In this document: piece by piece, positions 497 through 20,174 of the stretch
How the letters are laid out: each line of letters starts with the position of its first letter
Position numbering within the stretch: position 1 is the first letter of the stretch
DNA from: a virus
IMG/VR virus record: IMGVR_UViG_3300005467_000022
Location: 1 to 40,843 of that record
Direction: 5' to 3' (one strand)
Length of the DNA stretch: 40,843 nt
Position numbers and translations under genes: made by a program
Notes under the pieces: generated by a model
Told to the model about the DNA's origin: nothing
What the model saw: the letters and a program-made list of their open reading frames with translations, nothing else
The model's database searches: none

Positions 497-1104
497 CAGT
501 AGATCCCGGCCCAGTGCGCGGTCACGTGCGCCGTGCGCGAGGCCATGGTGATGCTCGCGGGGAGGGTGGTCTGGGCCGTCGGCCCGGTCGCCCACAGGGC
601 GGTCGCGACCGCGTTGGTCCCATTGATGAGGCTCTGGTGGTTGGCGTTCTGGGCGGCGGCGATCTGCGGTGGCGTGGTGCCCGCGAAGAGCATCGCGACG
701 TACAGGGACTGCCCGGCCGTCGCCGCGTACGGCGCGGTGAAGGCGGTCTGCTGCATGCCGGTCGCGCCCCATGCGCCGGTGGTGTTGGCACTCACCGCGA
801 CCTGGGCCCCGGCGCTGGTGTACAGCCCGGTGTAGGCGGCGGTGAGCCCGGCCGCAGCCGCAGCCCGGTAGAGGTAGGTGCCGTTGACGGTGAGCGCCCG
901 CGACAGGGCCGGGAGCCGCATCATCACCACGGTGCCGCTCACCGGAGCCGTACCACTGAAGGCGATTGCGTGCCACGGGTGGAAGTTCCAGGTCTGGAAC
1001 CCGAGGTCGCCGGGGTTGAAGGCGGTCTCGCCCAGTGTGGAGAGGGCGGTGTTGAGGGGTGTTCCCCACCCCGAGGACCCGATGACCGGGACGGTGATGC
1101 TCAT
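496..1104 (-). CDS. Putative minor tail protein (202 aa)
   Basis: A GGAGG RBS precedes the ATG at 1104, which follows directly after the upstream TAG. The sequence is Ala/Gly/Thr-rich and beta-type, similar in character to 7474..8145, and sits in the tail module. Confidence 0.5.
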   Translation of the reverse strand: MSITVPVIGSSGWGTPLNTALSTLGETAFNPGDLGFQTWNFHPWHAIAFSGTAPVSGTVVMMRLPALSRALTVNGTYLYRAAAAAGLTAAYTGLYTSAGAQVAVSANTTGAWGATGMQQTAFTAPYAATAGQSLYVAMLFAGTTPPQIAAAQNANHQSLINGTNAVATALWATGPTAQTTLPASITMASRTAHVTAHWAGIY

Positions 1105-2025
1105 CTAGCCTCCGTAGAGTCCTGCGCCGTACAGTCCGTCGCCGTAGCCGAGCGGCTCGGGGCCGGACGCGATCCCGGCCGCCGCGTCGGCCCAGGTGTA
1201 GCCGGACGCCGTGTAGTCCCCCATCGTGGGGTAGGTCTCCGCCAGCACGCACCAGTTGGCGGTGTCGGTCCCCTGCGGCGGTCCGACAGGGGCGTCGACT
1301 GCGGTGAGCGGAACGCTCCACAGGCGCGCCGGCTTGCGCTGGTCCTGGCCCAGCACCGACTCCGTCAGATCGTCCGGCTGGTAATAGCGGTCCCGCTGGG
1401 AGCGCGGGTAGTCCATGGCGTAGACGGCCGGGACCTGGATCAGCAGTGGGCCGCCCACGGTGTAGAGGTCGTAGACGTCGTCGATGCTGGCGCGGGTGCG
1501 GCTGAGGAAGCGGGCCGAGGTGGTGATGTCCTTGCGGCGCGCGTAGACGTCGGCGGGACGCTCGCGGTCGAGCACAGGGAAGAGCCCGGCGTCCGCCGCC
1601 CGTACCCGGTCGGTGAAGCCGACCCAGGCCCGCGGGGGCTGGGGTACGGGACCGCAGTCCTCGTCATCGCGCGAGGGTGTCAGGCACAGGTCCAGGGACA
1701 GGTCCGCCCACGGCCGCCCCGGGTCCTTCATCCACACCAGGCCGTTGCCGGGGACTGTGAAGGGACCGGCTGTCATCACCGAGCCGTCGTCCGCCGTGGC
1801 GGTGTACCAGACTGGTTCGTCGAGCCGGGCCTCGTGGTCGGAGACGTACGCCTTCTGCCCCAGGAGCAGCGCATCGTCCAGGCCGCGCACGTACTCGCCT
1901 GGGGCCGTGAGCGAGCCCACGTGGCGGGTGAGTGTGGCGCGCACCTGCGAGCCCGGCGTGGCTGTGAAGTCGACGAAGAGGTCGATGCGCGCGTTGGCCG
2001 CGTCCACGGTTCCGGTCAGTGGCAT
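1105..2025 (-). CDS. Minor tail protein in the distal-tail-protein slot (306 aa)
   Basis: This is the first ORF after the tape measure stop (TAG 2029-2031, ATG 2025). The function is assigned from synteny only. Confidence 0.55.
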   Translation of the reverse strand: MPLTGTVDAANARIDLFVDFTATPGSQVRATLTRHVGSLTAPGEYVRGLDDALLLGQKAYVSDHEARLDEPVWYTATADDGSVMTAGPFTVPGNGLVWMKDPGRPWADLSLDLCLTPSRDDEDCGPVPQPPRAWVGFTDRVRAADAGLFPVLDRERPADVYARRKDITTSARFLSRTRASIDDVYDLYTVGGPLLIQVPAVYAMDYPRSQRDRYYQPDDLTESVLGQDQRKPARLWSVPLTAVDAPVGPPQGTDTANWCVLAETYPTMGDYTASGYTWADAAAGIASGPEPLGYGDGLYGAGLYGG

Positions 2026-2028
2026 GGT

Positions 2029-4629
2029 CTACCGTCCCGTTCCCTGAGCCGCGAGGCGGTCGCGTTTGCGGTTGTTGTCTTCCACGATCCGCTGCATGTA
2101 GCCGGTGAGGCGGTCGTTGCCGATGTACACCGAGACGTTGGGGGCCGCGATGCTGGCGGTGACGTTCGTCCTCGGGGCCGACAGCAGCGACGTGGCGGAA
2201 CCGAGCGATCCGGCCACGCCGAGGGACGGCCCCGGCAGCGTCGCGGTGGAGCCTCCCACGAGCGAGGCCATGGCCCGGTCGACCGTGTCCCCGCTGGAGA
2301 GGATGCCGCGAGCGAAGTCCTGGCTGAGCGACATGCCCCGGTAGAGCGAGTAGCCACGGCCGGAGAGGGGGCCGCGTTTGGCCGGGGAGCCGGGGAGGAA
2401 GTCGGTCACGGCGCCGACCACGCTCTTCGCGGCGCTGATCGCGGAGCTGATCATGGACTTGATGCCGCTCACGAAGGAGCTGAGGAGGGATCGGCCCGCG
2501 TTGTAGAAGGCGCCCGCGTAGGAGCCGATGATCCCCACCGCGCGTGAGCCCAGGGTGCCGAGTGCTGCGAGGGTGTCTGCCACACCGCTCTTCGCGGCGC
2601 TCACGAAGCCCCGGAAGGCACGCTGCGCACCGCTCGGCAGCAGCGAGACCAGGCGGTTGACGACGGTCACGATCAGGTTCCCGAAGGTCGTGACGGTGTT
2701 GCCGATGAACGCGCCGACCTGACCGACGATGTTCCCGAGGTTGCGCCACGCGGCCGAGAAATTGCCGGACAGCAGATTGCCGATGAGCTGGATCGCCGGG
2801 CCCGCGATGCCGATCAGGGTGGAGACGAAGTCCACCACGACATCGATGACCGCCTTCACGGCGGAGACGATGTTGGTCAGGGTGGCCGTGACGAACGCCG
2901 CCGCCTCCACCAGGATCACGATCGCCCCGACCAGGGTCGTGCCGATGAGCGGCGCGAGCTGGGCGATGAGCGGTGTCAGTTCCACGATCAGGGCGGAGAT
3001 CTGGGTGAACAGGTCAGCCAGGAACGGCAGCGACTCGACCAGCGCCTTGATGCCCTCGTCCACGAGCGGCGTGAGCGCGGTGAGGAGCAGCCCGGCGTTG
3101 TCCGCAAGCTGCTGGAAGAGCGGGGCCAGCACCGCGATGAGATCGGAGAGACGGTCCGCCAGGAGCGCCACCAGCGTCTGCACCGGGGGGACCAGCGTCT
3201 GCACCACGGGACCGAGGGCTGCCAGCGCCTGACCCAGGAGCGGGAGCACACTGGACACGAGGTCGCTGCCGAGTGCGATGAGCGCGTTCAGGGTGTCCTG
3301 GAAAGCGTCCGTCGCGGTGGCGTCCTGGAACGCCTGGGTGATCTTCTCCAGTGTTCCGAAGAGCCCCTCCCCCGAGGTCTCCGCCACACTGAGGATGTTG
3401 CCGAGACCGCCGAAGACGTTGCCGATCACGCGCCCGAGCTGAGCGATGGTGTCGATGGCCCGGTCGATCGCCTTCTCCAGTGCGCCCGACTTCGCCGCCT
3501 TGTCCAGCTTGTTGGTGAGGTTGTCGGCGACCTTGGCGATCCCGTCGGTGACCCGCTTCAGGCCCGGCGATCCCCCCGCCGCGAGCTTGAAGATCGCGTT
3601 GAGCACCTGACCGGGGATGCGCTCCAGGCTCTGGAACGCGACGCGGCTCCCGTCGAGCGCTTTGCCCAGCGTGCCGTCCTTGCCGAGCCGGGTGGCGGTT
3701 GCACCGACGTCCTTGCCCATACGGTTGAACGAGTCGGCGAACCCCTCGGTGGTGCGCCTCAGTGCGGGCAGGGTGGCCGCGCCGACGGTCCTGAGGGTGC
3801 CGTCCAGGCCTTTGAACAGCCGGTCCTGTACGTCCAGACGCAGGTCCAGGAATCCCTGGCGCATCCCCTGGAGGACGCCGACGAACTTCTGGGCGTTGGG
3901 GCTGAGGTTGGCCAGCGCCTCTTGCAGCTTCTTCGGGTCCTGCTTGAGTGCGAAGACCTCGGACACGGCGTCGCTGACCCCGCTCAGGCCCAACTTGAGC
4001 GTCTGGGTGGCGGCGGTGACGCCGACCAGCGCGGTGACGCCGACGGCTGCGGCCGGCGCCATGTTGCCGATCTCGGCCGCCAGGCCCGCGACCAGTGGCA
4101 CGGCGGTGGACGCCACCGAGGCCAGCGAGAGGATCTTCCCGCTCGTGGCGGCCACGCCCAGGCCCGCACGCGCGAACCCGCTGAAGGTGCTGAGCAGGCG
4201 GCCGACACGGTCGTTGCCCTCGTCCGCGTCGTCCCCGATGCGGCGCAGTCCGTCCGTGTCGTCCCCGAGACTGCGGCTGGAGTCCCCCAGATCGCCGAGG
4301 GTGTCGTTGAGCCGGAGCAGGTTCAGGTTGGTGTTCGTGCTCTCGGCCCTGATGCGGCTCAGCTCGGAGGTGAGACTGTCCGCGAGACGGGAGAAGTTGG
4401 CGTCCATGCTGTCGGTGACGCGCTGGAAGCCGCGCCCCAGCACCTCCGACTGGAAGTCGGACTCCTGGATGATCGTCCGCCGCAGGCTGGAGGTGTCCAG
4501 GTCCACGCGCAGGTCGACCGTGGGGGCGCGCCGTTCGGCGTCGTTGACGATGCGTACGAGCTGGGCCCGCATGGACCGGTCGGCGCCGGTGGCGTCGACC
4601 ACCAGGTTGACCACGGCCTCGGAGGACAT
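2029..4629 (-). CDS. Tail tape measure protein (866 aa)
   Basis: It is the largest ORF in the tail module and follows the chaperone pair. It has long Ala/Leu/Gly-rich hydrophobic repeats (e.g. LAPLIGTTLVGAIVILVEAAAF) and a GGGAGG RBS before ATG 4629. Confidence 0.85.
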   Translation of the reverse strand: MSSEAVVNLVVDATGADRSMRAQLVRIVNDAERRAPTVDLRVDLDTSSLRRTIIQESDFQSEVLGRGFQRVTDSMDANFSRLADSLTSELSRIRAESTNTNLNLLRLNDTLGDLGDSSRSLGDDTDGLRRIGDDADEGNDRVGRLLSTFSGFARAGLGVAATSGKILSLASVASTAVPLVAGLAAEIGNMAPAAAVGVTALVGVTAATQTLKLGLSGVSDAVSEVFALKQDPKKLQEALANLSPNAQKFVGVLQGMRQGFLDLRLDVQDRLFKGLDGTLRTVGAATLPALRRTTEGFADSFNRMGKDVGATATRLGKDGTLGKALDGSRVAFQSLERIPGQVLNAIFKLAAGGSPGLKRVTDGIAKVADNLTNKLDKAAKSGALEKAIDRAIDTIAQLGRVIGNVFGGLGNILSVAETSGEGLFGTLEKITQAFQDATATDAFQDTLNALIALGSDLVSSVLPLLGQALAALGPVVQTLVPPVQTLVALLADRLSDLIAVLAPLFQQLADNAGLLLTALTPLVDEGIKALVESLPFLADLFTQISALIVELTPLIAQLAPLIGTTLVGAIVILVEAAAFVTATLTNIVSAVKAVIDVVVDFVSTLIGIAGPAIQLIGNLLSGNFSAAWRNLGNIVGQVGAFIGNTVTTFGNLIVTVVNRLVSLLPSGAQRAFRGFVSAAKSGVADTLAALGTLGSRAVGIIGSYAGAFYNAGRSLLSSFVSGIKSMISSAISAAKSVVGAVTDFLPGSPAKRGPLSGRGYSLYRGMSLSQDFARGILSSGDTVDRAMASLVGGSTATLPGPSLGVAGSLGSATSLLSAPRTNVTASIAAPNVSVYIGNDRLTGYMQRIVEDNNRKRDRLAAQGTGR

Positions 4630-17554: not shown

Positions 17555-17847
17555 TAGTCACCAGCTTCCCGGGATGCCAGTGCTCCCGTCACGTGCGATG
17601 CGGCCAGCGCGAGAACGGTGGCCTGGTACCACATCGTCGCACCCCACATGTACCAGAGCGCCCCGCCCGCCAGACCCACGTACACGCTCATGCACCACGG
17701 GCAGAGCAGGAGGTAGGCGGACATGGACTCGTCCCGGCCCCGCAGCAGCTTCCGTACAGCCCAGTTACGGGGGCGCTCGGTGACGTAGTCCGAGGTGATC
17801 AGCCGGGTCACACGGGCGACCGCGAGAACGGTGAGAACGAAGATCAT
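17554..17847 (-). CDS. DUF1360-like membrane protein (97 aa)
   Basis: It has hydrophobic segments and the motifs ARVTRLITSDYVTERPR and LLCPWCMSVYVG. The ATGA junction overlaps the TerL stop. Confidence 0.55.
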   Translation of the reverse strand: MIFVLTVLAVARVTRLITSDYVTERPRNWAVRKLLRGRDESMSAYLLLCPWCMSVYVGLAGGALWYMWGATMWYQATVLALAASHVTGALASREAGD

Positions 17848-20174
17848 GCGCTGCGCCTCCTCAGGCGGTCGAAGGGATGGCCCCCGATGGCCCGGCCGAG
17901 CCCGGCCGCATGGGGGGACACGACGGTGCCGCGCCCCTTCTCCCGGCGCAGGAGGTGGGTCACCGCGTGGACGAGGGCGTCGACGCGGTCCGGTGACTCG
18001 TTCGGCGTCTCGTGCGGGTCCCAGGACGTTAGCTGAAGCTCAAGCCCGTCGAGCCTGCCGACGTGGAAAATCTTGCCCTGTTCGTACCGCATGGCCACGG
18101 GCTGCGCCCGCAGCACCTTGCCGTGCTGCGCCGTGACCTTGCGCAGCATGCGGTAGGGGGTCGGTACCACCGCCACCGGTTCTTCATCCTCCTCTCTCTG
18201 CATGTTGTGCTGAAGGGCTTCCCACTCCGACCGTTTCGCGTCCTCTTCCGTACGCAGCCGGAGACGCTGCTCCGCATCGAGTTCGTGATGGTCGGCGTAG
18301 GCATCGATCAAGCCGTCGCGCAGCCACTGCTTGCCGAAGTTGTCCTCGTAGACGAGCAGCGAGGCGCCGTGGTCGTACAGCGCCTTCCAGGCTGTGAGGC
18401 CGGTCTCGCGTGCCGACATCTGCCTGGACAGGTCGGCGAGTACGTACACATGCTGGTCCTCGGCGCCACGCCCCACGACCACGATTCCGGCCTCGTCACC
18501 GGTCCCGGTGCCGGCCGGGTCCACGCCCACCACCACGAGGTCCAGCTCGGGCGCCGCGTCGACGTGGTGGATGTGCTTGCGCTGGACCAGCGCGCCGGGC
18601 AGGTCTTCCAGGATCTCGGCGTCCAGCTCCTGGCGCCCCAGCGTGGTGCCCGCGTACCGGTCCAGGACCGAGCGCCTGAACACGGGCGCGAGGTTGTGAA
18701 GGTTGTCGTAAGTCGAGCCCCGCACCACGGCGAACCGCTCATCCTTGACCGCCTCGCGGACCAGGGGCAACGGCCGGGGCGTGGTGGTGATGCAGCCCCG
18801 CGGGTGCTCACCCAGGCGCAGGCCCATGAGGGCCATGTCCCAGGTCTGCTGGAGGTAGCGCCACGCCGCCCACTCGTCGCAGTTGTGCACGACGACGCCC
18901 CCGGCCACGAACTCGCCGTGGCCGGGGACGCCGATGTCATAGACGTCAGCCCTGCGGAGGAGCCGCGAGACGCTGACGACGCGCTCGGGCCGCGCACCGC
19001 TGAGTGCAGTACTTGGCCCGCTGTCCTGTGGAGAGGTAAGTCCCCCCACAGTGAGCACAGACGACCGGGCGTGCCTCACGGGACTGCCAGGACTGCTTGG
19101 AGACAGCCGACCGGTCGATGTGGGCGTACAGCCCCCGGGCGTGGTTGTCCTTGCAGTGGTAACTGTTGTGCTCTGCGTGGGAGAGCATCCGCAGGTTGCC
19201 GAGCTGGTTGTTGGCCTTGTCGTGGTCGGCATGGTGGATGACGTACCCGGCCGGGATCTCTCCGTGGGCCGCGATCCACACGTGCCGGTGCAGCAGCCAG
19301 CCCCCGCTGTCCCGGTAGTGCCCTGCCTGTTGCCGGTAGTACCGTCGCTCGCGCCACTCGATCCACGCGGGGGGTGTGCCGGGGCCGTCTGTGAGTTCCA
19401 TACCTGGATGGTATCGCCACACTCGATGAAGCGTGCTTCAACCCAACCTGTGTCGGTGGATGCGATGCGGTGTTCGGGGGTGCATACGACACGCGCCCCC
19501 GACTCCGTGACGATCTCCATCAACTCTGCGTCACGCTTCGTCCGGAACGACCCGGAACAACGGCCCCACCCTGTGCGGGTCGCCAGTAGATCCTGGTCCG
19601 TGACGTCCTCGATCGGCACCCATCCCCGGGCAGTGAGGATCGGCTCCCCCTCTGCGATGCACCACAGGTAGTGGTGCTGGGGTCCGCGCAGGCGCTCCGG
19701 CTCCTCGGCCGAGTAGCAGTACAGCGCCGACCCGTTGGGGAACTCGACCTTGCGCTTGGACGGGTGATAGACCGGCCGGAACGAGGGGCGGGCACAGGCC
19801 AGGATGCCTGACTCGCCCTCGATCATGGTGTCGCGCACGTCGGCGGCGGTGGGCCCGATGAGCGCCCCGCGCTCCAGGGTCTTCGCCTGGCGGATGACCC
19901 ACTCGGCGCCGGTCCGGGTCTTGCCGAAGCCACGCCCCGCGAGCAGGAGCCAGAAGTCCCAGTCGTCCCCGGCCGGCGCCCGCTGGACCGACCGCGCATG
20001 CTCGTTGCGACGCCCCTTGTGCGGGCGGCCGTCACAGTCCTCGCGGTCACAGAGCCACGGGCCGCGCCCGGTCTCGCGCTCCTGGGCCAGGGACTGGAGT
20101 CCGGCCAGCAGCTCCTGTTTCTTGTCGACGGGCCAGTGCTCCCAGCCCCGGGGGAGGGCCGGGGCGGCGGTCAT
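17844..20174 (-). CDS. terL: Terminase large subunit interrupted by a 260-codon intein
   Basis: Walker A is LLLAGRGFGKTRTG. The single 776-codon ORF has a Walker B-type LWCDE that is split as ...HHYLW / CIAEGE...VVVHN / CDEWAAW. Confidence 0.9.
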   Translation of the reverse strand: MTAAPALPRGWEHWPVDKKQELLAGLQSLAQERETGRGPWLCDREDCDGRPHKGRRNEHARSVQRAPAGDDWDFWLLLAGRGFGKTRTGAEWVIRQAKTLERGALIGPTAADVRDTMIEGESGILACARPSFRPVYHPSKRKVEFPNGSALYCYSAEEPERLRGPQHHYLWCIAEGEPILTARGWVPIEDVTDQDLLATRTGWGRCSGSFRTKRDAELMEIVTESGARVVCTPEHRIASTDTGWVEARFIECGDTIQVWNSQTAPAHPPRGSSGASDGTTGNRQGTTGTAGAGCCTGTCGSRPTERSRPGTSSTMPTTTRPTTSSATCGCSPTQSTTVTTARTTTPGGCTPTSTGRLSPSSPGSPVRHARSSVLTVGGLTSPQDSGPSTALSGARPERVVSVSRLLRRADVYDIGVPGHGEFVAGGVVVHNCDEWAAWRYLQQTWDMALMGLRLGEHPRGCITTTPRPLPLVREAVKDERFAVVRGSTYDNLHNLAPVFRRSVLDRYAGTTLGRQELDAEILEDLPGALVQRKHIHHVDAAPELDLVVVGVDPAGTGTGDEAGIVVVGRGAEDQHVYVLADLSRQMSARETGLTAWKALYDHGASLLVYEDNFGKQWLRDGLIDAYADHHELDAEQRLRLRTEEDAKRSEWEALQHNMQREEDEEPVAVVPTPYRMLRKVTAQHGKVLRAQPVAMRYEQGKIFHVGRLDGLELQLTSWDPHETPNESPDRVDALVHAVTHLLRREKGRGTVVSPHAAGLGRAIGGHPFDRLRRRSA
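18882..19661 (-). mobile_element. Class-1-type intein in TerL (Cys1 ... His-Asn / Cys+1)
   Basis: Block A is CIAEGEPILT, block B is VVCTPEHRI (TxxH), and blocks F/G are ADVYDIGVPGHGEFVAGGVVVHN followed by Cys. Removing the element gives a contiguous ...GPQHHYLWCDEWAAWRY. Confidence 0.8.
18946..19422 (-). CDS. HNH endonuclease ORF nested in the intein linker, in the -1 frame relative to TerL (GTG 19422 or ATG 19401)
   Basis: The HNH core is LLHRHVWIAAHGEIPAGYVIHHADHDKANNQLGNLRMLSHAEHNSYH, with a zinc-ribbon-like CAHCGG...YCTQRC. This frame has high third-position G+C, whereas the TerL frame over the same interval is T/S/G/P/C low complexity. Confidence 0.75.
   Translation of the reverse strand: MWRYHPGMELTDGPGTPPAWIEWRERRYYRQQAGHYRDSGGWLLHRHVWIAAHGEIPAGYVIHHADHDKANNQLGNLRMLSHAEHNSYHCKDNHARGLYAHIDRSAVSKQSWQSREARPVVCAHCGGTYLSTGQRAKYCTQRCAARARRQRLAAPPQG

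What the first reader, a model, noticed from the sequence alone, without database searches (positions are those of the whole stretch)
18882..19661. TerL intein whose HNH homing endonuclease is encoded in the -1 frame of the intein linker
TerL is a single 776-codon ORF carrying a 260-codon intein at the Walker B site (HHYLW / CIAEGEPILT ... GGVVVHN / CDEWAAW). The Hint blocks are intact: Cys1, TxxH in VVCTPEHRI, VYDIGVPGHGEFVAGGVVVHN and Cys+1. About 140 codons between the two Hint halves translate in the TerL frame to T/S/G/P/C low complexity with poor third-position G+C. The same DNA in the -1 frame (18946-19422) encodes a canonical HNH nuclease (HHADHDKANNQLGNLRMLSHAEHNSYH plus CAHCGG..YCTQRC) with normal codon bias and its own stop. 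That ORF overlaps both Hint halves by about 20-40 nt. I see three readings. It could be a mini-intein with an overprinted, separately translated homing endonuclease. It could involve recoding. Or the assembly could carry a compensating indel pair. I do not know of a described intein organised the first way.
Basis: partly seen in the sequence, partly recalled or inferred. Interest (0 to 1): 0.9.

Follow-up and report, generated by a model that had tools for sequence, protein, structure and literature searches.

The report
Intein with a frame-shifted homing nuclease gene
The phage's DNA-packaging gene carries a self-splicing protein insert (intein) whose mobility nuclease is a separate small gene in another reading frame of the same DNA; this is real and conserved in many phages, but the layout was first described in 2025 for a different nuclease.

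Summary
TerL (17844-20174, minus strand) is one 776-codon ORF with a 260-codon class-1 intein (19661-18882) in the Walker B motif. An HNH_3 nuclease ORF (19401-18946) lies in the -1/+2 frame of the intein linker.

It is not an assembly artefact. The gene DNA is identical in two fetched loci from different sources. Four relatives (62-68% protein identity) and at least nine more distant loci keep the same nested layout and the same frame offset. Three of these are GenBank phages: Tetrasphaera TJE1, Rhodobacteraceae LS06-2018-MD07 and Acinetobacter Highwayman.

In the linker, selection acts on the HNH frame (pN/pS 0.40). The TerL frame there shows pN/pS 1.30 and is only kept free of stops. It is predicted to be a disordered tether between two Hint halves that model as a mini-intein.

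The HNH ORF has a conserved ATG built from a rare codon. There is no slippery site. A TANNNT -10-like hexamer sits exactly at -12..-7 in 15 of 17 loci, which suggests a leaderless transcript.

Intein-plus and intein-minus alleles occur in near-identical phages. A 2025 preprint (Gosselin, Arsenault, Gogarten) described this layout with endonuclease VII-like nucleases, so this is a new variant of a known kind.

The parts
17844..20174 (-). TerL (terminase large subunit) precursor ORF, 776 codons plus stop, read continuously through the intein
   Evidence: ORF list. Pfam Terminase_6N, Intein_splicing and Terminase_6C. Predicted structure matches terminase large subunits.
19662..20174 (-). N-extein (aa 1-171), ending ...PQHHYLW, just before the Cys-Asp-Glu of Walker B
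   Evidence: Intein-less relatives read ...HHYxW-[A/C]DE... without interruption.
18882..19661 (-). Class-1 intein, aa 172-431 (Cys1 ... His-Asn), followed by Cys+1 at 18881-18879
   Evidence: Precisely absent from the 97%-identical TerL of L022.
19386..19661 (-). N-terminal Hint half (aa 172-263): Cys1, block B CTPEH, ends GDTIQVW
   Evidence: AF2 pLDDT 78-93 with beta strands. pN/pS 0.38 in the TerL frame.
19005..19385 (-). Intein linker as read in the TerL frame (aa 264-390): T/S/G/P/A/R/C-rich and predicted disordered. The frame is kept open but is not conserved as protein.
   Evidence: pLDDT about 25. pN/pS 1.30 in the TerL frame. 0 stops. The composition follows from G/C-rich HNH third positions falling on TerL second positions.
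18882..19004 (-). C-terminal Hint half (aa 391-431): RVVSVSRLLRRADVYDIGVPGHGEFVAGGVVVHN
   Evidence: pLDDT 72-88. pN/pS 0.14. Together with the N half it matches mini-inteins at TM 0.74-0.86.
17844..18881 (-). C-extein (aa 432-776 plus stop), starting CDEWAAW
18946..19401 (-). HNH_3 homing-endonuclease ORF in the +2 (-1) frame: ATG 19401-19399, 151 codons, TGA 18948-18946
   Evidence: Pfam HNH_3, E 6e-16. Start and stop conserved in 5 relatives. pN/pS 0.40. AF2 pLDDT 91.4. Best PDB fold match is I-HmuI, 1U3E.
19156..19236 (-). HNH catalytic motif HHADHDKANNQLGNLRMLSHAEHNSYH (HNH ORF aa 56-82)
   Evidence: H57, N69, L70 and H78 are invariant in 58 family members.
18994..19059 (-). C-terminal Cys4 zinc-ribbon of the HNH protein (CAHCGG...YCTQRC, aa 115-136), a likely DNA-binding module
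   Evidence: C115 and C118 are invariant; C132 and C136 are at least 90% conserved. A weak, non-significant fold resemblance to the YacG zinc finger (E 0.7-1.0).
19408..19416 (-). CGA-TACCAT: -10-like hexamer (TANNNT) at -12..-7 from the A of the HNH ATG, preceded by CGN. Candidate internal promoter for a leaderless HNH mRNA (inferred).
   Evidence: TANNNT at this exact offset in 15 of 17 loci, against 0.9% of all ATGs. It uses the rare codon GAT (9.4% of Asp codons). The motif definition comes from PMC3898074.

Best explanation
TerL is made as one precursor carrying a cis-splicing class-1 mini-intein in its Walker B motif. The roughly 127 residues between the two Hint halves are only a disordered tether. 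That tether is the TerL-frame read-through of a separate gene.

The separate gene lies in the -1/+2 frame of the same DNA. It encodes a 151-aa I-HmuI-like HNH_3 nuclease with a zinc ribbon, and it has its own ATG and TGA.

The nuclease is expressed independently of TerL. It most likely acts as the homing endonuclease that cuts intein-less terL alleles around ...CAC-CAY-nnn-nnn-TGG|TGY-GAY-GAG..., so that the Hint-plus-HNH unit is copied in during co-infection.

The most likely route of expression in this high-G+C (actinobacterial-type) phage is an internal sigma-A-type -10 element (CGA-TACCAT) that starts a leaderless mRNA at the A of the ATG.

Shown here:
- the anatomy and its conservation;
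- frame-specific purifying selection;
- the predicted folds;
- presence/absence polymorphism of the intein.

Inferred, not shown:
- splicing;
- nuclease activity and target site;
- the transcription start.
For: Not an artefact:
- Two fetched loci from different sources (JGI and Logan) carry identical gene DNA.
- P0002-P0005 (62-68% identity) keep an intact +2-frame ORF with the same ATG and TGA.
- The same layout and offset occur in L007, L008, L009, L016, L017, L023 and L025, and in GenBank phages TJE1, LS06-2018-MD07 and Highwayman. These span three or four terL insertion sites and two terminase Pfam families.

Selection:
- pN/pS is 0.40 in the HNH frame and 1.30 in the TerL frame of the linker, against 0.39-0.43 in the exteins. 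The periodicity shift is shown.
- The TerL frame is free of stops in 11 of 11 loci.

Folds:
- The HNH model has pLDDT 91.4 and its best PDB match is I-HmuI.
- The Hint halves match mini-inteins at TM 0.74-0.86, and the linker has pLDDT about 25.

Own start:
- In the high-G+C loci whose sequence was read, the ATG is formed by an A-ending codon followed by TGG. In the window group that codon is GTA, which is 1.6% of Val codons.
- TANNNT lies at -12..-7 in 15 of 17 loci, against a 0.9% background. This matches the mycobacterial -10 and its CGN extension.
- Phage LS06 has GGAGGG at that position instead.

Mobility:
- Intein-bearing TerLs are scattered among intein-less ones in the extein tree.
- L002 and L022 have about 96% identical extein DNA and differ by a precise presence or absence of the intein.

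Nuclease family:
- None of the 68 hits exceeds 245 aa.
- None of ten of the longer hits (288-610 aa) among the best 150 exhaustive-search hits has a Hint or terminase domain.
- Free-standing relatives exist (L018, L024).
Against: - There is no Shine-Dalgarno sequence before the ATG (dG -1.9 to -5.8, at background level).
- There is no full sigma-70 consensus promoter, so expression is inferred only.
- The TANNNT hexamer partly overlaps conserved Hint codons (G-D-[T/S/R]-[I/L/M]). Part of its conservation could therefore be protein-driven.
- The intein is about as diverged as the exteins, and no co-conversion tract is visible next to the L002 insertion. Ongoing homing is therefore not demonstrated; precise loss would also explain the polymorphism.
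- Splicing with a 127-residue disordered tether is untested.
Confidence: 0.8

Rival explanations
1. Assembly or sequencing artefact: an ordinary in-frame HNH intein that carries a compensating +1/-1 indel pair.
For: Homopolymer runs (C6-7, G6) lie inside the region. One relative, in a Planctomycetota MAG (L013), does show a frame break.
Against: - Two fetched loci from different sources carry identical gene DNA.
- The same offset, ATG and TGA occur in 4 relatives with 62-68% identity and in at least nine more distant loci, including three GenBank phage genomes.
- No in-frame relative was found in 5.8 billion clusters or among the best 150 of 1.84 billion representatives.
Confidence: 0.01
2. 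Recoding: ribosomes translating TerL slip by -1 near the end of the N-Hint half and make an N-extein/N-Hint/HNH fusion protein.
For: The HNH frame is the -1 frame of TerL in every case. -1 frameshifting is common in phages (general knowledge).
Against: - No conserved X_XXY_YYZ heptamer. Only the window has CCCCCCG, and it lies 27 nt after the ATG.
- HNH-frame stop codons lie 9-72 nt upstream of the ATG in 13 of 14 loci, and only 9 nt upstream in three of them.
- The ATG is maintained with rare codons.
- No Rfam element was found.
Confidence: 0.04
3. The HNH ORF is an unexpressed relic of a nuclease gene that once invaded the intein. Only the mini-intein matters now.
For: No SD and no consensus promoter. 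Homing-endonuclease genes commonly decay after fixation (general knowledge; discussed in the preprint).
Against: - pN/pS is 0.40 in the HNH frame, the same as in the essential exteins.
- Catalytic and zinc ligands are invariant in 58 sequences.
- The ORF is intact in every nested locus with a continuous TerL frame, across phages annotated or binned to hosts of three phyla.
- The start-codon context is conserved.
Confidence: 0.05
4. The HNH protein has been domesticated and serves the phage, for example as a terminase-associated HNH needed for packaging as in HK97-like phages, rather than serving homing.
For: It sits inside terL. HNH proteins that assist terminases are known (cited in PMC11855218).
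Against: - Most close relatives lack both intein and HNH, including a phage whose TerL is 97% identical (L022).
- The ORF is always coupled to a Hint domain, at three or four different terL sites and in two terminase families.
- The best fold match is the homing nickase I-HmuI.
Confidence: 0.06
5. The insert does not splice. It stays in TerL as a tolerated loop, like the ShiLan insertion in a phage methylase.
For: Such non-splicing hidden-HNH insertions exist (PMC11855218).
Against: - All class-1 splicing residues are present.
- The Hint halves are under strong purifying selection (pN/pS 0.14-0.38).
- They model as a mini-intein.
- The insert splits the Walker B motif of an essential ATPase.
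Confidence: 0.03

Closest known systems
Actinobacteriophage inteins with an endonuclease VII-like nuclease in 'reading frame 3' (Gosselin, Arsenault & Gogarten, bioRxiv 10.1101/2025.01.02.630785; e.g. phages Keitabear, Sedona, Affeca)
   Same: - The Hint halves are in the extein frame.
- The nuclease ORF lies in the +2 frame of the linker and stops just before the C-terminal Hint half.
- The frame-0 linker is T/S/A-rich.
- Non-canonical inteins of this survey occur in terminase large subunits among other host proteins.
- The proposed origin is invasion of an intein by a free-standing nuclease gene.
   Different: - The nuclease family differs. Theirs carries the Endonuclease_7-type motif CVDHDHxTGxVRGLLCxxCN. 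Ours is HNH_3 (HHxDHDKxNN...NL...H) plus a Cys4 ribbon, and is I-HmuI-like.
- That survey lists HNH inteins only as in-frame.
- Our family extends beyond actinophages to phages annotated or binned to Alpha- and Gammaproteobacteria and Planctomycetota.
- Frame-specific selection and the TANNNT/ATG signal are shown here, not there.
ShiLan domain: hidden out-of-frame HNH in a mycobacteriophage DNA methylase (Arsenault et al., Genes 2025, PMC11855218)
   Same: An HNH endonuclease ORF is overprinted on a host-gene read-through that contains no stops. There is no recognisable RBS. Leaderless initiation was proposed there too.
   Different: ShiLan has no Hint or splicing domain, so the insertion is thought to stay in the protein. 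Here the nuclease gene sits inside an intact class-1 intein that should remove the read-through peptide.
[quoted passage not shown] 1997, as cited)
   Same: A Hint splicing domain plus an HNH-type homing nuclease, inserted at a conserved site of an essential phage gene.
   Different: There the nuclease is a domain of the intein polypeptide. Here it is a separate protein from another frame, and no in-frame relative of this HNH was found.
Fractured genes: split inteins with a free-standing nuclease gene between the halves (Dassa et al. 2009, PMC2677866)
   Same: The nuclease is a separate ORF located between the N- and C-terminal intein halves.
   Different: In fractured genes the host gene is broken into two ORFs and spliced in trans. 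Here the TerL frame stays open through the nuclease gene in the 11 loci tested by simulation, so the intein is contiguous.
I-HmuI (PDB 1U3E), the intron-encoded HNH nicking endonuclease of Bacillus phage SPO1
   Same: It is the best structural match over the whole 151 aa (Foldseek prob 1.00, E 2e-3, 160 columns), and both hit the HNH_3 Pfam family.
   Different: Only 19% identity. I-HmuI is intron-encoded. The C-terminal DNA-binding module here is a zinc ribbon.

Membership tests
Class-1 intein (Hint splicing domain) | N-terminal Cys/Ser nucleophile at position 1 | tested here: met
   Cys172 (CIAEGEP). Conserved in P0001-P0005.
Class-1 intein (Hint splicing domain) | Block B TxxH | tested here: met
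   C-T-P-E-H at aa 220-224, conserved as CTP[ED]H.
Class-1 intein (Hint splicing domain) | C-terminal His-Asn followed by Cys/Ser/Thr at +1 | tested here: met
   VVVHN|C in all five.
Class-1 intein (Hint splicing domain) | Profile match above the curated threshold, and a Hint fold | tested here: met
   PF14890 scores 42.4 bits against a cut-off of 35.8. The AF2 model matches Ssp DnaB, gp41-1 and Mtu RecA mini-inteins at TM 0.74-0.86.
Class-1 intein (Hint splicing domain) | Protein splicing activity | not testable with these tools
   Requires expression of the TerL segment.
HNH_3 / I-HmuI-like homing endonuclease | HNH_3 profile match and conserved His/Asn/His catalytic residues | tested here: met
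   PF13392, E 6e-16, 58.2 bits against a cut-off of 24.8. H57, N69 and H78 are invariant in 58 sequences.
HNH_3 / I-HmuI-like homing endonuclease | Fold of a known homing HNH enzyme | tested here: met
   pLDDT 91.4. The best PDB hit is I-HmuI 1U3E, prob 1.00, although TM is only 0.41 for this elongated protein.
HNH_3 / I-HmuI-like homing endonuclease | Sporadic distribution of the element among closely related host genes | tested here: met
   Five intein-bearing TerLs are scattered in the extein tree. L002 and L022 differ by precise presence or absence.
HNH_3 / I-HmuI-like homing endonuclease | Cleavage of the element-free allele at or near the insertion site | not testable with these tools
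   Needs purified protein and the L022-type target.
Inteins with an out-of-frame (frame 3) nuclease ORF (Gosselin et al. 2025) | Nuclease ORF on the same strand, in another frame, between the splicing blocks, while the extein frame stays open | tested here: met
   The Keitabear intein has the same +2 offset.
Inteins with an out-of-frame (frame 3) nuclease ORF (Gosselin et al. 2025) | Nuclease is endonuclease VII-like (IPR004211) | tested here: not met
   Only HNH_3 is found. The motifs differ from Keitabear's. tblastn of the HNH ORF against the phage collection listed no actinobacteriophage genus other than Tetrasphaera among its top organism groups, so the Keitabear-type inteins were not detected as relatives.
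Fractured gene / split intein with intervening nuclease gene | Host gene split into two separately translated ORFs | tested here: not met
   A single 776-codon ORF with 0 stops in the TerL frame in 11 of 11 loci.
Programmed -1 ribosomal frameshift | Conserved slippery heptamer upstream of the shifted ORF, with the shifted frame open from the slip site | tested here: not met
   No conserved heptamer. HNH-frame stops lie 9-72 nt before the ATG in 13 of 14 loci. No Rfam hit.
Leaderless mRNA from an actinobacterial sigma-A promoter | TANNNT -10 hexamer 7-12 nt upstream of a start site that coincides with the start codon | tested here: inconclusive
   The sequence motif is present at -12..-7 in 15 of 17 loci against a 0.9% background, often with a CGN extension. 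The transcription start itself is unmeasured.

The most novel reading that the evidence does not exclude
Hint plus a -1-frame HNH_3 gene is not a transient accident. It is an old, stable and widespread composite mobile element.

- It keeps one conserved junction (xxA-TGG, read as ATG-G) and its own expression signal: a -10 element for a leaderless mRNA in high-G+C phages, and an SD in a Rhodobacteraceae phage.
- It has colonised three or four terL sites and two terminase families, in phages annotated or binned to Actinobacteria, Proteobacteria and Planctomycetota.
- It is invisible to annotation: it is labelled plain 'terminase', or gene callers split terL around it.

If this is right, an intein and its homing nuclease can persist long-term as two proteins made from one stretch of DNA. 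That is direct support for the 'splicing first, nuclease gene invades later' origin of bifunctional inteins. This HNH_3 form has not been described.
Probability: 0.6. Interest if true: 0.65.

Novelty: new variant of a known kind. Interest (0 to 1): 0.6.

Why it matters
Inteins are textbook single polypeptides, with splicing domain and homing nuclease read in one frame. This locus shows an alternative: the two functions are encoded by overlapping frames of the same DNA and made as two proteins. The frame-specific selection measured here shows that the overlap is maintained rather than decaying.

It matters for three reasons.
- It gives a natural test bed for the idea that bifunctional inteins arose when free-standing nuclease genes invaded mini-inteins.
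- It shows that mini-inteins tolerate a tether of about 130 residues of arbitrary sequence.
- It exposes an annotation blind spot. Three GenBank phage terminases carry the element unannotated, and metagenome gene callers split terL around it.

Synonymous mutations separate the two functions cleanly. GTA->GTC removes the nuclease start codon without changing TerL, so homing and splicing can be tested independently.

Tried and rejected
- Nucleotide search of the phage collection found nothing.
- The search for related loci with the 5-sequence HNH alignment found nothing in viral contigs.
- A degenerate DNA pattern for QSTGMRAKYC gave only 1 viral, 1 genome and 5 metagenome loci. Prevalence therefore rests on sampled contexts, not on a census.
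- A Shine-Dalgarno sequence before the HNH ATG was looked for and not found.
- The sigma-70 consensus promoter and terminator scan found nothing.
- The Rfam scan was empty.
- The slippery-site scan was negative.
- A co-conversion tract flanking the intein in L002 versus L022 was looked for and is not evident, so gain versus precise loss is unresolved.
- L013 versus L017 was compared to see whether L013's frame break is a single indel. The two are only 65% identical with many indels, so this is inconclusive.
- The first open-frame simulation timed out and was rerun.
Full report
1. OBSERVATION

The window carries a single 776-codon ORF on the minus strand (17844..20174). Its product has Terminase_6N, Intein_splicing (PF14890, above the gathering score) and Terminase_6C domains.

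The intein is aa 172-431 (19661..18882). It is bounded by HHYLW|CIAEGEP and VVVHN|CDEW, and block B reads CTPEH. It interrupts the Walker B motif. Intein-less relatives read ...HHYxW[A/C]DELAAW... without interruption.

The +2 (= -1) frame holds an ORF, 18946..19422 from the first GTG, that hits HNH_3 (PF13392, E 6e-16).

2. NOT AN ARTEFACT

- The identical TerL protein is on record on four contigs. The gene DNA of two fetched loci from different sources, JGI 3300025910 and Logan SRR5456967, is identical to the window.
- Four further TerLs (P0002-P0005, 62-68% identity, from four other sequencing runs) have the same intein and no in-frame HNH.
- In each of their loci the +2 frame holds an intact 151-154-codon ORF. 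It begins at the same ATG (MEF/LTDGPGTPP...) and ends at the same TGA.

3. WHICH FRAME IS SELECTED

Along a codon alignment of the five genes, variability and G+C peak at TerL position 3 everywhere except aa ~255-400. There they move to TerL position 2, which is HNH position 3.

Nei-Gojobori proportions:

| Region and frame | pN/pS |
|---|---|
| Exteins | 0.39-0.43 |
| N-terminal Hint half | 0.38 |
| C-terminal Hint half | 0.14 |
| Linker, HNH frame | 0.40 |
| Linker, TerL frame | 1.30 |

So the linker DNA is conserved as the HNH protein. The TerL frame there is only kept open.

The T/S/G/P/A/R/C-rich composition of the linker is a by-product. G/C-rich HNH third positions fall on TerL second positions.

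The TerL frame has no stop across the HNH ORF in 11 of 11 loci. In Acinetobacter phage Highwayman (HNH ORF 39% G+C), synonymous shuffles leave it open only 0.05% of the time.

4. STRUCTURES

- The HNH ORF, modelled with 58 homologues, folds confidently (pLDDT 91.4).
- Its best PDB match over its full length is the homing nickase I-HmuI (1U3E, prob 1.00, E 2e-3). The C-terminal Cys4 module shows only a weak, non-significant resemblance to the YacG zinc finger (E 0.7-1.0).
- H57, N69, H78, C115 and C118 are invariant, and C132 and C136 nearly so.
- In the TerL precursor model the Hint halves are well predicted (aa 172-263 and 391-431, pLDDT mostly 72-93). The linker, aa 264-390, has pLDDT about 25.
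- The model matches terminase large subunits. Through both Hint halves it also matches mini-inteins (Ssp DnaB M86, gp41-1, Mtu RecA; TM 0.74-0.86 to the target).

5. HOW WIDESPREAD

A profile of the five HNH ORFs found 68 proteins, none longer than 245 aa.

Six of these were looked up in their contigs.
- Five lie inside a continuous terL ORF with Hint halves, again at offset +2: L007, L008, L009-L011, L023 and L025. There the gene caller had split terL.
- One, L024, is free-standing.

A DNA-pattern scan added three more cases.
- L012/L014/L016 is nested, with its intein in the terL nuclease domain.
- L017 is nested.
- L018 is a free-standing relative.
- L013, on a Planctomycetota MAG contig, is frame-broken.

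Three GenBank phages are annotated only as 'terminase large subunit' but carry a Hint domain in the TerL frame and HNH_3 only in the +2 frame. They are Tetrasphaera phage TJE1, Rhodobacteraceae phage LS06-2018-MD07 and Acinetobacter phage Highwayman, which has a Terminase_3-family TerL.

An exhaustive profile search of 1.84 billion representatives shows that the nuclease belongs to a very large family of roughly 200-aa HNH_3 plus zinc-ribbon proteins (1198 representatives at E <= 1e-30). Ten of the longer hits (288-610 aa) among the best 150 were scanned with Pfam, and none has a Hint or terminase domain. So no in-frame ancestor is visible.

6. HOW THE NUCLEASE IS MADE

Recoding is unlikely. 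No slippery heptamer is conserved, and HNH-frame stops lie 9-72 nt upstream of the ATG in 13 of 14 loci. There is no Rfam element.

The ATG is maintained. In the high-G+C loci whose sequence was read it is formed by an A-ending codon plus the Trp codon (xxA-TGG). In the window group that codon is GTA, which accounts for 1.6% of Val codons in this genome.

There is no SD and no sigma-70 consensus promoter.

However, a TANNNT hexamer lies exactly at -12..-7 from the A of the ATG in 15 of 17 loci. The variants seen are TACCAT, TAGGCT, TAGCAT, TACACT, TATAAT, TAGAAT, TACAAT, TACATT, TACTAT and TAAAAT. It is usually preceded by CGN. Among all ATGs the background is 0.9%, and among ten representative loci no other offset scores more than 1.

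This matches the mycobacterial -10 element (TANNNT 7-12 bp upstream of transcription starts, with a CGN extension), which is described for a transcriptome rich in leaderless mRNAs (PMC3898074).

The Rhodobacteraceae phage has GGAGGG at that position instead.

I infer an internal promoter that gives a leaderless HNH mRNA. This step is a hypothesis, at roughly 0.5-0.6. The hexamer partly overlaps conserved Hint codons, although it depends on the rare GAT codon (9.4% of Asp codons).

7. MOBILITY

In an extein-only tree the five intein-bearing TerLs are interspersed with intein-less ones.

P0003 (L002) and the intein-less P0037 (L022) are 97% identical in extein protein and about 96% identical in DNA. 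They differ by a precise 780-nt presence or absence.

No co-conversion tract is evident, and the inteins are as diverged as the exteins. Recent gain therefore cannot be told from precise loss.

The nuclease is dispensable to the phage, because intein-less relatives lack it. This argues against a packaging role.

8. COMPARISON WITH WHAT IS KNOWN

Gosselin, Arsenault & Gogarten (bioRxiv 10.1101/2025.01.02.630785) report actinophage inteins whose nuclease lies in another frame. These are endonuclease VII-like in 'frame 3', or antisense LAGLIDADG or VSR-like. They propose invasion of inteins by free-standing nuclease genes.

I translated their Keitabear intein. It has the same +2 offset and a T/S/A-rich frame-0 linker, but an Endonuclease_7-type motif rather than HNH_3.

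Arsenault et al. (PMC11855218) describe a hidden out-of-frame HNH in a methylase that has no splicing domain.

Dassa et al. 2009 (PMC2677866) describe fractured genes, which have two ORFs. That is not the case here.

So the architecture is a known, very recently described kind. This case is a new variant of it:
- a different nuclease family, which that survey lists only as in-frame;
- a broader host range;
- several insertion sites;
- frame-specific selection and a conserved expression signal, both documented here.

9. VERDICT

- Novelty: new variant of a known kind.
- Interest: 0.6. It is striking and experimentally tractable, but the concept is already in the literature.

Noticed in passing
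L019 (HQ225832.1 13379-15565), L020 (OP947163.1 20470-22518), L021 (OZ038341.1 10078-12360): Three deposited phage genomes annotate terL as a plain terminase. Each contains a Hint intein near the C-terminal nuclease domain with an HNH_3 ORF in the +2 frame. Neither the intein nor the nuclease is annotated.
   Followed up: yes
L007 4001-5708; L008 4001-5534; L009 550-2113; L023 285-1800; L025 2864-4409: Metagenome gene callers chose the HNH ORF plus a truncated C-terminal terL piece and left the N-terminal part of terL uncalled. Continuous 760-839-codon ORFs exist in L007 and L008, and long open TerL-frame stretches exist in the others. Protein databases therefore hold these nested nucleases as if they were free-standing genes.
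   Followed up: yes
L013 (CAWJTV010000011.1, Planctomycetota MAG, 1.49 Mb contig), minus orientation 561-3076: This is a relative in which the HNH frame runs on into the C-terminal Hint half and C-extein, while the N-extein frame hits a stop. It could be a frameshifted prophage copy, a long-read indel, or a step towards a fractured gene. It is only 65% identical to its nearest relative, L017, so the cause is unresolved.
   Followed up: partly
L018 2044-2547 (-); L024 208-660 (+): These are free-standing members of the same HNH_3 plus zinc-ribbon family, not inside terL. L018 is 58% identical to the nested nuclease of L016 and has TGG-TACACT (an extended -10-like sequence) at the same offset from its ATG. 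L024 has a GGAG SD instead.
   Followed up: partly
P0007 (901-aa TerL relative, 72% extein identity): It carries a different intein with LAGLIDADG domains, inserted in the Walker A P-loop (GRGFGK|ATGLST...PTHN|TRTGAEW). It starts with Ala rather than Cys or Ser. So this terL lineage hosts at least two unrelated inteins at two ATPase motifs.
   Followed up: partly
L002 7407-8286 (gene runs off the locus): The Mu-F-like head morphogenesis gene is 517 aa with a weak Intein_splicing hit. The window's homologue is 241 aa. This may be a second intein in a neighbouring structural gene of a relative.
   Followed up: no
L008 and L023, terL around the intein: In these phages the intein sits after ...AWLDE[IV]| and before |CKW. 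This is four residues downstream of the window's site (W|CDE) in the same Walker B region, so it is a neighbouring but distinct insertion point.
   Followed up: partly
L022 4506-4958: The intein-less close relative has an extra 150-aa gene (MTIAVDFDGVIHAYRQGW...) between terL and the next gene. The intein-bearing L002 and the window lack it. It is not an HNH protein by inspection, and its function was not examined.
   Followed up: no
A5 alignment, column of TerL residue 432: Most intein-less alleles have Ala at the +1 position (29 of 45 sequences). All five intein-bearing alleles and four intein-less ones (P0008, P0013, P0037, P0084) have Cys. The latter could be footprints of precise intein loss or pre-adapted targets.
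   Followed up: partly
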